From the NCBI RefSeq assembly GCF_058153355.1, contig NZ_CM177019.1: DNA of 64,000 nt; one strand, written 5' to 3'. This document shows positions 58,014 through 59,942 of this stretch, piece after piece (the stretch's first letter is position 1; each line of letters opens with the position of its first letter). Under the pieces are notes generated by a model that had not been told where the DNA came from, did no database searches, and saw nothing but the letters and a program-made list of their open reading frames with translations. The position numbers and the translations under genes are program-made.

Positions 58014-59942
58014 TCAGCGCTCATCACTGGTCACTCCAAAATTTTCAAGCTTGTTGGCAATCATCATTGCGATGTCAGGGATTGCAGGCGCATAGGCTAT
58101 GCACGCAGGATTCGCACATAAACCGTAAACCGCCGCAATCAACACCTGTTTTTTCCAGTTGAGTTCATCTTCGCCAGTTTCATTATTGCTATCATTATGC
58201 TGATCGCTGCCAGCGTTCTCCGGTAACAAATCATCAGCTTTTTCCGTTTTCTTCGGCTCTTCTTCCTGTGCTTCATCTGGTTTTTTTTCGTCAAAAGTTT
58301 CCTGATAAGTTGCGTCTCCCATCACCGCGCCACAGTCAGGGCAGTTATCCTCGCCAGTCTGATTGCAGGGTGTTCCCTCCTCCGGTTCGCTGTTCTGGTG
58401 CTGTTTATCTTCAGTCTGTCGCACTTCATTTTCCGTTTTTTTGACTTCATTTGAGGAGATATGATGACCGGGAATCCATTTCGAATCATTCGGGTCGCTA
58501 ATCCCTTCAACAAATTCTCCGCGAGAGGCAGCCAGTAATTTGTCTGCATCGACAGGATTTTTGGGCGGAATGTTTTTCCGGGCTTCATGGAGTTCTGCCC
58601 GTAGTTCCTGATATTTCTCATCAACAGAATTTACCTGTGACTGAGCATCCAGCGGCTGCGTGTTCTGATGATGTTCAGTTGCATCCGGTTCCATTGTTTC
58701 AGCTGTTGCCTGTTCATCTGCCATTGCGCCAGATGGCTGCGGTTTTTCTTCATCATCCTGTTTTCCTTCTTCTGTTACACGTTGCGGCATCGGGGCAGAG
58801 GAGCGACCGCAGGCAATATCCACGATTTCCGGATCAGGGTTGGCATGATCGGTTTCAGTCAGTACCTTGTTCAGATATTCAGTGACGTGCGTGGGGATGA
58901 CCTCGATACCAATCGGTGCTTCTTTCACTGACGCAACCACGATGGCGCGGGAATAATCCAGCCCGCCAGGCATGGTGATGAATTTGTCGCGGAAAACAGA
59001 AAAGGGCGGTTTATTTTCAGCGATAATTTCCTCAATGCGTTTAGCGTGTGCCGGATGAAGGTTATAAATGTCCACGTCCATTGAACGAGCCAGTACGCCA
59101 GTGGCTACGTCGCGCGCCAGTGACGTCAGATCGTGAACGAAACCTTCGCCGCGATCGGTGAGGTTCCCGCCGCCAGCATTAGCACCGGAAGCCGTGCGCG
59201 TGATGCGTGAAACACGATTTCCTTTCATCCACTCTTTTGTCAGCAGACCGCGATCGGTGTAGTTGGCATCCCGATATGCTTCGAAAAAAGCAGTCATCAG
59301 TCCCAGATTTGAATTGCCAGGATTAGGGAAAACTTTGTCAGTATCACGCACGAGTTTGTGGAGATCGCGAATTTCCAGCGGGGCGAGCAGGCTGGTTTTA
59401 TGCGAAACAGCCAGGGCAGTAACAGCTGGTAGTTCCTCAGCCCGTGCAATGTGTAATGCCTGGAGTTCGTCGCGTGAAACGTGCGTTACCGGTTTTTCGC
59501 TGCCGTGTTGAGCAAGCCAGCGAATGGGCAGCTCCTGACCAGAAATCGGGAGTAGCATATTCTCCTCAATCTCCGTCATGTCTTCGCCATTAACATTGGT
59601 ATTGTCAGTGCTGGCTGGTTTGTCCTGCGCAGAGGGTGAGGGCGCGATAAATACCATTGTGATGCCATCTTCCCCGCCTTTTTCGTAACGGTTGCAGAAT
59701 TCCGTATCAAACACGCCTTCTGGGGGGAGGTCATCAACAACGGGCAAATTGACGCGAACAGGTTTTTTAAAGTCATCTTCATCGTAGCCTGCATCGTCAA
59801 TCGCAACAGCACCACGGGAGATGGCAATGGATAATTTTTTCGCTTCAGCCCAGTAAAAACCGCCTTTAATACCGAGGCGTTTTCTTACTTTGTCATTTTT
59901 TGCTTCGTAATACAGTGGGTAAACTTGTTTATCGGTGCTCAT
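58014..59942 (-). CDS. large acidic phage early protein, 642 aa, unknown function
   Basis: Long ORF with acidic low-complexity stretch and a CxxC...CxxC motif near the C-terminus. Confidence 0.5.

What the first reader, a model, noticed from the sequence alone, without database searches (positions are those of the whole stretch)
58014..59942. Large acidic early-region protein of unknown function
A 642-aa ORF in the int-proximal early region has a long acidic low-complexity stretch and a CxxC...CxxC motif. The position corresponds to the poorly understood ea/b-region genes of lambdoid phages.
Basis: inference. Interest (0 to 1): 0.3.

Follow-up and report, generated by a model that had tools for sequence, protein, structure and literature searches.

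The report
Nuclease-less RecE-family prophage protein, IS-clipped
The 642-aa acidic ORF is not an orphan: it is a well-populated variant of the prophage RecE (exonuclease VIII) family that keeps the large N-terminal region of unknown role, carries a short conserved helical tail where the nuclease domain would be, and has lost its last four codons to an ISSso6 insertion.

Summary
The ORF is real: 58014..59942, minus strand, 642 aa, pI 4.7. It belongs to a known family. It matches Pfam Exonuc_VIII, PHROG 607 and the NCBIfam exonuclease VIII model, but only over profile positions 1-596 of 877. The catalytic PDDEXK domain is absent. In its place is a ~40-aa tail ([18 protein letters not shown]...IANKLENFG).

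The tail is not read-through junk. It is nearly invariant in homologs down to ~20% identity, is under strong purifying selection (dN/dS 0.05-0.11), and occurs in viable Stx phages directly upstream of gam-bet-exo.

The same N-terminal region is fused elsewhere to a PDDEXK nuclease (true RecE) or to a DEDD exonuclease. I therefore read it as a non-catalytic platform, with the effector attached or encoded separately.

An AF2 model is confident for residues 1-400, but that fold has no structural relative. Residues 493-594, the acidic stretch, are predicted to be disordered.

A 1518-bp ISSso6 sits exactly at the ORF/gam junction. It supplies the stop codon, removes the last four residues (LPDF) and removes gam's start codon.

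Only one CxxC is present; relatives have CxxC-x7-CxxC. The class is already annotated and was noted in 2025 as "RecE-2, role unknown". Its biochemical function remains unknown. Low interest.

The parts
58014..59942 (-). 642-aa ORF: a RecE-family protein that lacks the nuclease domain ('RecE-2'/YdfE-like class). The intact form is 646 aa.
   Evidence: P0001 is 100% identical over all 642 aa and is 646 aa long.
58743..59942 (-). Residues 1-400: confidently folded N-terminal region, made of a ferredoxin-like subdomain and a helical domain. The fold has no structural relative.
59376..59789 (-). Residues 52-189: match to Pfam Exonuc_VIII (PF06630). This model covers a non-catalytic N-terminal part of RecE.
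   Evidence: In full-length RecE the same model hits residues 52-189, while the nuclease domain is at 861-1029.
58773..59261 (-). Residues 228-390: the most conserved core of the family (…[17 protein letters not shown]…MDVDIYNL…PGGLDYSRA…).
   Evidence: Nearly invariant in alignment A1; dN/dS 0.02-0.20 across pairs, lowest between diverged pairs.
58158..58772 (-). Residues 391-595: acidic, largely disordered linker. This is also the region where prophage modules are recombined.
   Evidence: dN/dS is 0.3-0.6. Nucleotide identity to L002/L003 drops from 96% beyond window 58473, about residue 490.
58332..58367 (-). Residues 526-537: degenerate zinc-knuckle remnant, C-x7-CxxC. Relatives have CxxC-x7-CxxC.
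58035..58157 (-). Residues 596-636: conserved C-terminal two-helix tail ([41 protein letters not shown]) occupying the position of the nuclease domain.
   Evidence: Near-invariant in A1. Family consensus LTYxQQLTIAALQGLCANPAY..DDLPxMA in 21 clusters. dN/dS 0.05-0.11 with dS 0.4-1.6. AF2 helices at 596-610 and 621-634.
58014..58016 (-). Stop codon TGA created at the IS junction: two bases come from the IS end and one from the target. It replaces the native last four codons (LPDF).
56498..58015 (+). ISSso6 (IS110-like) insertion, 1518 bp, flanked by AG on both sides. The transposase ORF is 56575..57750.
56208..56468 (-). gam homolog that has lost its native ATG and first codons to the IS. Only an 86-aa ORF from an internal ATG remains, against 98 aa in relatives.
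55105..56202 (-). AAA_24 ATPase (365 aa; weakly Sak4-like), the last gene of this Rec-module variant.
63097..63124 (-). Candidate pL promoter (TTGACA-16-TATTAT) that would drive the early-left operon containing the ORF. It lies just downstream of the cI-like gene and a terminator-like site.
   Evidence: consensus match only

Best explanation
The ORF encodes a member of the nuclease-less branch of the RecE (exonuclease VIII) family of lambdoid prophages. It has four parts: a ~400-residue folded N-terminal region shared with true RecE, a disordered acidic linker with a decayed zinc knuckle, and a conserved ~40-residue two-helix tail where RecE carries its PDDEXK exonuclease domain. It is expressed from the early-left (pL) operon as the first gene of the recombination module, which here reads RecE-N, then Gam, then an AAA_24/Sak4-like ATPase. 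In IS-free relatives it is translationally coupled to gam. It cannot be an exonuclease itself. The most likely role (inferred, about 0.35) is a non-catalytic platform or adaptor. The N-terminal region would bind a so-far unidentified substrate or host target. The C-terminal position would hold the effector, either fused (a PDDEXK or DEDD nuclease in relatives) or held or oligomerised through the helical tail. In this window an ISSso6 element landed exactly at the ORF/gam junction. The protein loses only its last four non-conserved residues and probably remains intact. gam loses its start codon, and gam and the ATPase are cut off from pL by 1.5 kb of oppositely oriented IS.
For: Shown:
- Family assignment, with coverage limited to profile positions 1-596/877 and 1-619/883.
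- No PDB sequence hit for the ORF or its profile, whereas full-length RecE hits 3H4R at residues 899-1029.
- No nuclease, RecT, Bet or Exo coding sequence anywhere in the window.
- The IS-free relative at 98% identity has a 646-aa ORF ending ...SDERLPDF and overlapping gam.
- The tail is conserved and under purifying selection.
- About 25 of the 150 clusters at 50% identity have core plus tail, against about 20 with PDDEXK and about 15 with DEDD C-termini.
- The same architecture occurs in viable Stx phages 75/02 Stx, POCJ13 and phiSTEC1589, placed kil..RecE-N-gam-bet-exo.
- AF2 gives a confident fold for residues 1-400 and a disordered linker.
- The literature reports that full-length RecE, but not the nuclease domain alone, boosts linear-linear recombination and that the N-terminal function is unclear (PMC11610958). 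'RecE-2' proteins lacking a nuclease domain have been noted, with roles unknown (PMC12315714).

Inferred: the platform/adaptor role, the interaction or oligomerisation role of the tail, and the polarity of the IS on gam and the ATPase.
Against: - No fold relative was found and there is no PADLOC hit, so there is no direct evidence for any biochemical activity.
- Divergent tail-bearing homologs sit in prophages with no recognisable gam, SSAP or exonuclease next to them (L007, L009). This weakens an obligatory recombination role.
- This window's module encodes no nuclease that the protein could recruit.
- PGAP labels the closest IS-free copy a pseudogene.
- The tail's pLDDT is only 60-75.
- Expression in this possibly cryptic prophage was not tested.
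Confidence: 0.85

Rival explanations
1. It is a dead remnant: a recE pseudogene that lost its 3' nuclease-coding part by deletion or IS activity, and the last ~50 codons are meaningless read-through.
For: PGAP annotates the 98%-identical IS-free copy as 'incomplete; missing C-terminus'. The NCBIfam score of 1058.7 is below the 1269 cutoff. An IS abuts the 3' end.
Against: The tail is nearly invariant across homologs that are 56-100% identical, and is recognisable down to ~20% identity. Tail dN/dS is 0.05-0.11 at dS up to 1.6. PGAP calls the 665-aa L002 version intact. The form is present in viable Stx phages. The IS removed only four codons, which the Stx-phage orthologs also lack.
Confidence: 0.04
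2. It is an active exodeoxyribonuclease VIII, as most database names state.
For: Source names read 'exodeoxyribonuclease VIII' or 'RecE family exodeoxyribonuclease', and the Pfam model is named Exonuc_VIII.
Against: The Pfam model covers a non-catalytic N-terminal segment. There is no PF12684 or PF16473 domain, whereas relatives have them. There is no match to 3H4R, unlike full-length RecE. The AF2 fold resembles no nuclease.
Confidence: 0.03
3. It is an early-operon host-takeover, exclusion or counter-defence factor whose action is independent of phage recombination. Its fusion to nucleases in RecE would be a secondary recruitment.
For: Divergent tail-bearing homologs occupy the same early-left position in prophages at the same copD-yebY site, with no gam, SSAP or exonuclease nearby (L007, L009). 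The fold is an orphan. The family is narrow, with 227 clusters in 1.84 billion proteins, as is typical of phage accessory genes.
Against: The N-terminal region is repeatedly fused to two unrelated DNA exonuclease types. It abuts and overlaps gam in several module types. Full-length RecE's N-terminal region changes the recombination outcome (PMC11610958). No PADLOC model matches.
Confidence: 0.3
4. The hydrophobic tail is a membrane anchor that tethers the acidic protein to the inner membrane.
For: The maximum Kyte-Doolittle 19-aa window is 1.72, at [19 protein letters not shown].
Against: Homologous tails are much more polar (QQLTIAALQGLCANPAY..DDLP.MA), contain a conserved N-P turn and acidic residues, and are too short for two membrane spans. 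AF2 models a soluble helix-turn-helix.
Confidence: 0.04

Closest known systems
RecE / exodeoxyribonuclease VIII of the Rac prophage (E. coli K-12; nuclease domain structure PDB 3H4R)
   Same: Residues 1-~590 are homologous and collinear with the RecE N-terminal region. They share the Pfam Exonuc_VIII segment, the conserved core, the acidic linker and a zinc-knuckle remnant. The first ~490 residues are about 96% identical at nucleotide level to a full-length recE (L003) found at the same integration site. The operon position is the same.
   Different: It lacks the C-terminal PDDEXK exonuclease and tetramerisation domain, carrying a 40-aa helical tail instead. Its partner is gam plus an AAA_24 ATPase, not recT. 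It scores below the NCBIfam equivalog cutoff.
'RecE-2' proteins of lambdoid Rec modules (Genome Res 2025, PMC12315714)
   Same: They are described as RecE relatives that lack a nuclease domain by structure prediction, are encoded in the early-left region, and have unknown roles. That matches what is found here.
   Different: The paper calls its examples 'distantly related' to Rac RecE, whereas this ORF is closely related over its N-terminal 490 residues. The supplementary tables were not available to me, so I could not check whether this exact subgroup was included.
YdfE (Qin cryptic prophage, E. coli K-12; Pfam YdfE_N PF27430 / YdfE_C PF27432)
   Same: Divergent tail-bearing homologs of this ORF (P0186, P0231, P0250) carry YdfE_N and YdfE_C hits. 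The K-12 YdfE remnant aligns to the family profile over columns 3-328 with hhalign probability 98.8%, E=5e-17. Both are uncharacterised.
   Different: There is no pairwise BLASTP similarity to K-12 YdfE. The local Pfam copy lacks these models, so a direct match could not be scored. K-12 ydfE is itself an IS2-truncated pseudogene.
RecE-N fused to a DEDD/Rv2179c-like 3'-5' exonuclease (e.g. P0100, 800 aa)
   Same: Same N-terminal region and linker (PF06630 at residues 52-189). This illustrates that the C-terminal position is an exchangeable effector slot.
   Different: It carries a PF16473 exonuclease domain (E=7e-66) where this ORF has only the helical tail.

Membership tests
Exodeoxyribonuclease VIII (RecE) equivalog, NCBIfam NF007259 | Whole-protein score at or above the curated cutoff (1269 bits) over the full 877-position profile | tested here: not met
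   1058.7 bits; only profile positions 1-596 are matched
Exodeoxyribonuclease VIII (RecE) equivalog, NCBIfam NF007259 | C-terminal PDDEXK 5'-3' exonuclease domain (PF12684; PDB 3H4R) | tested here: not met
   No PF12684 hit. No PDB hit for the ORF or for profile A1, whereas the full-length control hits 3H4R. tblastn with nuclease domains finds nothing in the window.
Exodeoxyribonuclease VIII (RecE) equivalog, NCBIfam NF007259 | N-terminal Exonuc_VIII region (PF06630) | tested here: met
   E=6e-37, residues 52-189
Exodeoxyribonuclease VIII (RecE) equivalog, NCBIfam NF007259 | Adjacent recT partner gene | tested here: not met
   No RecT, Bet or lambda Exo by tblastn. The downstream genes are gam and an AAA_24 ATPase.
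Exodeoxyribonuclease VIII (RecE) equivalog, NCBIfam NF007259 | Exonuclease activity | not testable with these tools
   Requires a biochemical assay
Nuclease-less RecE-family / 'RecE-2' / YdfE-like proteins | N-terminal region and core homologous to RecE, with no nuclease domain | tested here: met
Nuclease-less RecE-family / 'RecE-2' / YdfE-like proteins | Conserved C-terminal helical tail motif (..QQLTIAALQGLCANPA..D(L/I)P.MA..) | tested here: met
   phmmer with the tail recovers 25 of 150 representative clusters; alignments
Nuclease-less RecE-family / 'RecE-2' / YdfE-like proteins | Match to Pfam YdfE_N (PF27430) and YdfE_C (PF27432) | not testable with these tools
   These models are absent from the local Pfam copy. 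Indirect support: divergent homologs carry both hits, and hhalign to K-12 YdfE gives probability 98.8%.
Nuclease-less RecE-family / 'RecE-2' / YdfE-like proteins | Encoded in the early-left operon of a lambdoid (pro)phage | tested here: met
   The gene lies upstream of gam, inside the Rec module, on the cI-proximal side of gam
Zinc ribbon / zinc knuckle (CxxC...CxxC) | Four cysteines in two CxxC pairs | tested here: not met
   Only C526 and C534-x2-C537 are present here. Relatives have CxxC-x7-CxxC.

The most novel reading that the evidence does not exclude
The RecE N-terminal region is an autonomous module with an orphan fold. The nuclease-less, tail-bearing proteins (RecE-2/YdfE-like) would be its stand-alone form: an adaptor that acts on DNA ends or a host target and recruits or organises effectors through the conserved C-terminal helical hairpin. 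The fused forms (RecE with PDDEXK, or the DEDD fusion) would carry the effector on the same chain. If so, thousands of database entries named 'exodeoxyribonuclease VIII' are not nucleases, and the long-unexplained N-terminal 600 residues of RecE would have a separable function that can be tested.
Probability: 0.35. Interest if true: 0.5.

Novelty: already known. Interest (0 to 1): 0.22.

Why it matters
For this window the finding mainly corrects a mislabel: the "unknown acidic protein" is a common RecE-family gene, and the sequence is 100% identical over its length to a deposited E. coli protein. Three wider points follow.

1. The databases name this class an exonuclease or flag it as a pseudogene. 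The evidence here suggests it is neither. It appears to be a conserved protein under selection that has no nuclease domain.

2. The role of the RecE N-terminal region is an acknowledged gap in recombineering biology. Full-length RecE favours linear-linear recombination for unknown reasons. The natural stand-alone form, present in viable Stx phages, offers a clean genetic handle on that question.

3. The ISSso6 insertion shows how IS expansion in Shigella/EIEC-type genomes dismantles prophage Rec modules. Here it decapitates gam while sparing the upstream gene.

Tried and rejected
- The first literature search used word-start matching, so 'RecE' matched 'receptor' and the results were useless. 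I repeated it with whole-word matching.
- tblastn of the 69-aa tail alone against the phage collection found nothing. The whole-protein search did recover tail-containing genes in Stx phages, so the negative result was a sensitivity or filter issue.
I replaced it with a local phmmer classification using reference C-terminal segments.
- PADLOC found nothing for the ORF or its neighbours.
- BLASTP against K-12 YdfE showed no similarity. Only the profile comparison detects the link.
- The supplement of PMC12315714 is not held, so I could not check which phages carry 'RecE-2'.
- The exact 642-aa sequence is not in the protein collection.
- I considered a frameshifted or displaced nuclease domain and rejected it.
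- I considered a membrane anchor and rejected it.
- Weak, recurrent Pfam DUF7165 hits at residues ~282-312 (E 0.1-0.6) fall far below the cutoff and were not interpreted.

Full report
**Observation.** The ORF listing confirms a 642-aa ATG-initiated ORF at 58014..59942 on the minus strand. A GAGG Shine-Dalgarno motif lies 10 nt upstream of the start. The product is acidic, with D+E 116 against K+R 68 and pI 4.71. An acid-rich stretch runs from about residue 380 to 595. The stated 'CxxC...CxxC' motif is only half there. This ORF has C526-x7-C534-P-D-C537 plus a Cx4C in the tail. Close relatives carry a genuine CxxC-x7-CxxC.

The setting is a prophage integrated next to copD-yebY and the ryeA/ryeB sRNA genes. 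Reading leftward, it contains a cI-like gene, a candidate pL promoter, Rha/Ash and ydaE genes, a 114-aa gene, this ORF, an IS, gam, an AAA_24 ATPase, a DUF1187 gene, xis and int.

**Family assignment.** The protein is not an orphan. It matches:
- Pfam Exonuc_VIII (PF06630, E=6e-37, residues 52-189);
- PHROG 607 (E=3e-238, residues 1-639 on profile positions 1-619 of 883);
- the NCBIfam exodeoxyribonuclease VIII equivalog NF007259 (1058.7 bits).

The NCBIfam score is below the 1269-bit cutoff, and only profile positions 1-596 of 877 are matched. In a full-length RecE from a prophage at the same site (L003, 1048 aa), PF06630 sits at residues 52-189, the PDDEXK-like domain PF12684 at 861-1025, and the solved RecE nuclease structure 3H4R aligns to 899-1029. 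The ORF and a profile of its close relatives hit nothing in the PDB. tblastn with two RecE nuclease domains, a DEDD domain, RecT, Bet and lambda Exo finds nothing anywhere in the 64-kb window. The ORF is therefore the N-terminal approximately 590 residues of RecE plus about 50 residues of something else, with no catalytic domain.

**The IS.** Alignment with the closest IS-free relative (NZ_CP065615, 98% identical) shows a 1518-bp insertion at window 56498..58015, flanked by AG on both sides. It is ISSso6, an IS110-like element with 100%-identical copies in several E. coli genomes.

In the IS-free relative the ORF is 646 aa. It ends ...TSDERLPDF and overlaps the gam start. In the window the IS end contributes two of the three bases of a TGA stop, so the protein ends ...TSDER. 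The IS also splits gam's third codon. gam therefore retains only an 86-aa ORF from an internal ATG, against 98 aa in relatives. gam and the AAA_24 gene are now separated from the operon's promoter side by an oppositely oriented IS. A polar effect on them is inferred, not shown.

**The tail is a conserved element, not junk.** Three kinds of evidence support this.

- *Conservation.* In an alignment of 11 tail-bearing homologs (56-100% identical, including Stx phages), residues 596-636 are almost invariant: W596, K597, Q599, [25 protein letters not shown]. The flanking linker is highly variable.
- *Selection.* Nei-Gojobori dN/dS for the tail is 0.05-0.11, with dS 0.4-1.6. The N-terminal 100 residues give about 0.00-0.20 and the core 0.02-0.20, with the lowest values between the more diverged pairs. 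The acidic linker gives 0.3-0.6.
- *Depth.* An exhaustive HMMER search of 1.84 billion representatives finds only 227 clusters. Among the best 150, about 25 carry the tail (447-732 aa, down to ~20% identity), about 20 carry a PDDEXK domain and about 15 carry a DEDD/Rv2179c-like exonuclease. The family-wide tail consensus is LTYxQQLTIAALQGLCANPAYxxxxDDLPxMAxxLA.

The four residues lost to the IS are also absent from the Stx-phage orthologs, which end ...FGGDKS. The window's protein is therefore probably functionally intact.

**Context in relatives.** Three module types share the near-identical first ~490 codons at this integration site:
- full recE plus recT plus ralR (L003);
- the tail form plus gam, bet, lambda exo and ralR (L002, which PGAP calls intact);
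- the tail form plus gam plus the AAA_24 ATPase (L001 and this window, which PGAP calls a pseudogene).

The join lies in the disordered linker, at about residue 490. Viable Stx phages (Shigella phage 75/02 Stx, POCJ13, phiSTEC1589-Stx1c) encode 682-690-aa tail forms in the order N..kil-hyp-RecE_N-gam-bet-exo..int, with a 4-nt stop/start overlap with gam.

Divergent tail-bearing homologs (P0186, P0231, P0250) carry precomputed Pfam hits to YdfE_N and YdfE_C. They sit in the same early-left position in other enterobacterial prophages, sometimes with no recognisable recombination genes nearby. The K-12 Qin-prophage ydfE remnant is itself cut by IS2. It shows no BLASTP similarity to this ORF but aligns to the family profile with hhalign probability 98.8%, E=5e-17.

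**Structure.** An AF2 model built from a 98-sequence alignment has mean pLDDT 76.8.
- Residues 1-400 are mostly above pLDDT 90. They form a small beta-alpha subdomain followed by a helical domain.
- Residues 405-434 and 493-594 are disordered.
- Two helices at 437-473 are moderately confident.
- The tail forms two helices (596-610 and 621-634) at pLDDT 60-75.

[quoted passage not shown] The same paper reports DnaQ-like nucleases in Rec modules. No functional paper on YdfE was found.

**Interpretation.** It is shown that this is a member of the nuclease-less, tail-bearing branch of the RecE family, clipped by four codons by ISSso6. The rest is inferred. The same N-terminal region is joined through a disordered linker to a PDDEXK exonuclease, a DEDD exonuclease or the helical tail. 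It usually sits at the head of a recombination module. From this I infer that the N-terminal region is a non-catalytic platform and that the C-terminal position holds the effector, or, in the tail form, an interaction or oligomerisation element. I put this mechanism at about 0.35. The main alternative is an early-operon accessory function unrelated to recombination, at about 0.3. The pseudogene, active-nuclease and membrane-anchor readings are each at or below 0.05.

**Verdict.** This is a known, already annotated family, and the sequence is essentially identical to deposited proteins (P0001 is 100% identical over 642 aa). Interest is low (0.22). The residual value lies in the annotation error (exonuclease or pseudogene labels on a conserved non-nuclease) and in the open question of what the RecE N-terminal region does.

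Noticed in passing
window 56498..58015 (+): ISSso6 (IS110-like) insertion of 1518 bp, flanked by AG on both sides, with imperfect terminal inverted repeats of about 14-16 bp (TATGACTTTCCGTG). 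About 265 nt of non-coding sequence lie downstream of the transposase ORF (56575..57750). Copies that are 100% identical occur in several E. coli genomes, with up to 16 matching places in one genome.
   Followed up: partly
window 56208..56468 (-): The gam homolog has lost its native ATG and first codons to the IS. Only an 86-aa ORF from an internal ATG remains, against 98 aa in relatives. The Pfam Gam match starts at profile position 14.
   Followed up: partly
window 54870..55048 (+) and 54866..55078 (-): A full-length RalA antitoxin sRNA (204 bits, above the gathering score) lies antisense to a DUF1187/ydaC-like ORF. The RalR toxin gene is absent; only about 28 nt of its 3' end remain at a module junction. 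This looks like an orphan antitoxin sRNA left behind by module exchange.
   Followed up: partly
window 61244..61432 (-), inside ORF 60635..61483 (-): A C4 antisense RNA (72.8 bits) and an isrK RNA (60.2 bits) lie within the 5' part of the 282-aa Ash/Rha ORF, just downstream of a promoter-like site at 61467..61439. This suggests a P1/P7-type c4-ant immunity cassette, and the ORF start is probably over-called.
   Followed up: no
window 53163..53308: The SraC/RyeA and SdsR/RyeB sRNA pair lies between yebY and the prophage integrase gene, which marks the chromosome/prophage junction. Several different prophages in other strains and species use this same copD-yebY site.
   Followed up: no
window 55105..56202 (-): A 365-aa AAA_24 ATPase (PHROG 1366, function unknown; weak Sak4-like match at E=1e-8) occupies the place of bet-exo or recT as the presumed strand-annealing component of this Rec-module variant. 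No nuclease is encoded in the module.
   Followed up: no
window 63097..63124 (-), 63188..63202, 63227..63733 (-): A strong sigma-70-like site (TTGACA-16-TATTAT, 11 of 12 matches) lies just downstream of a GC-rich terminator-like hairpin and a 168-aa HTH cI-like gene. It is a candidate pL promoter for the early-left operon.
   Followed up: no
window 61938..62384 (+): A 148-aa ORF on the opposite strand has CPEC...CPSC cysteine pairs and an N-terminal region that looks like a coiled coil. It has no Pfam or PADLOC hit. A related locus (L002) annotates an 'ECs_2282 family putative zinc-binding protein' at the equivalent position.
   Followed up: no
L006 853..4848: In a divergent relative, a stand-alone RNase_T/DEDD exonuclease gene lies two genes upstream of the tail-bearing YdfE-like gene. 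In other family members the DEDD domain is fused to the RecE N-terminal region. This fused-versus-separate pattern hints at a functional link.
   Followed up: no
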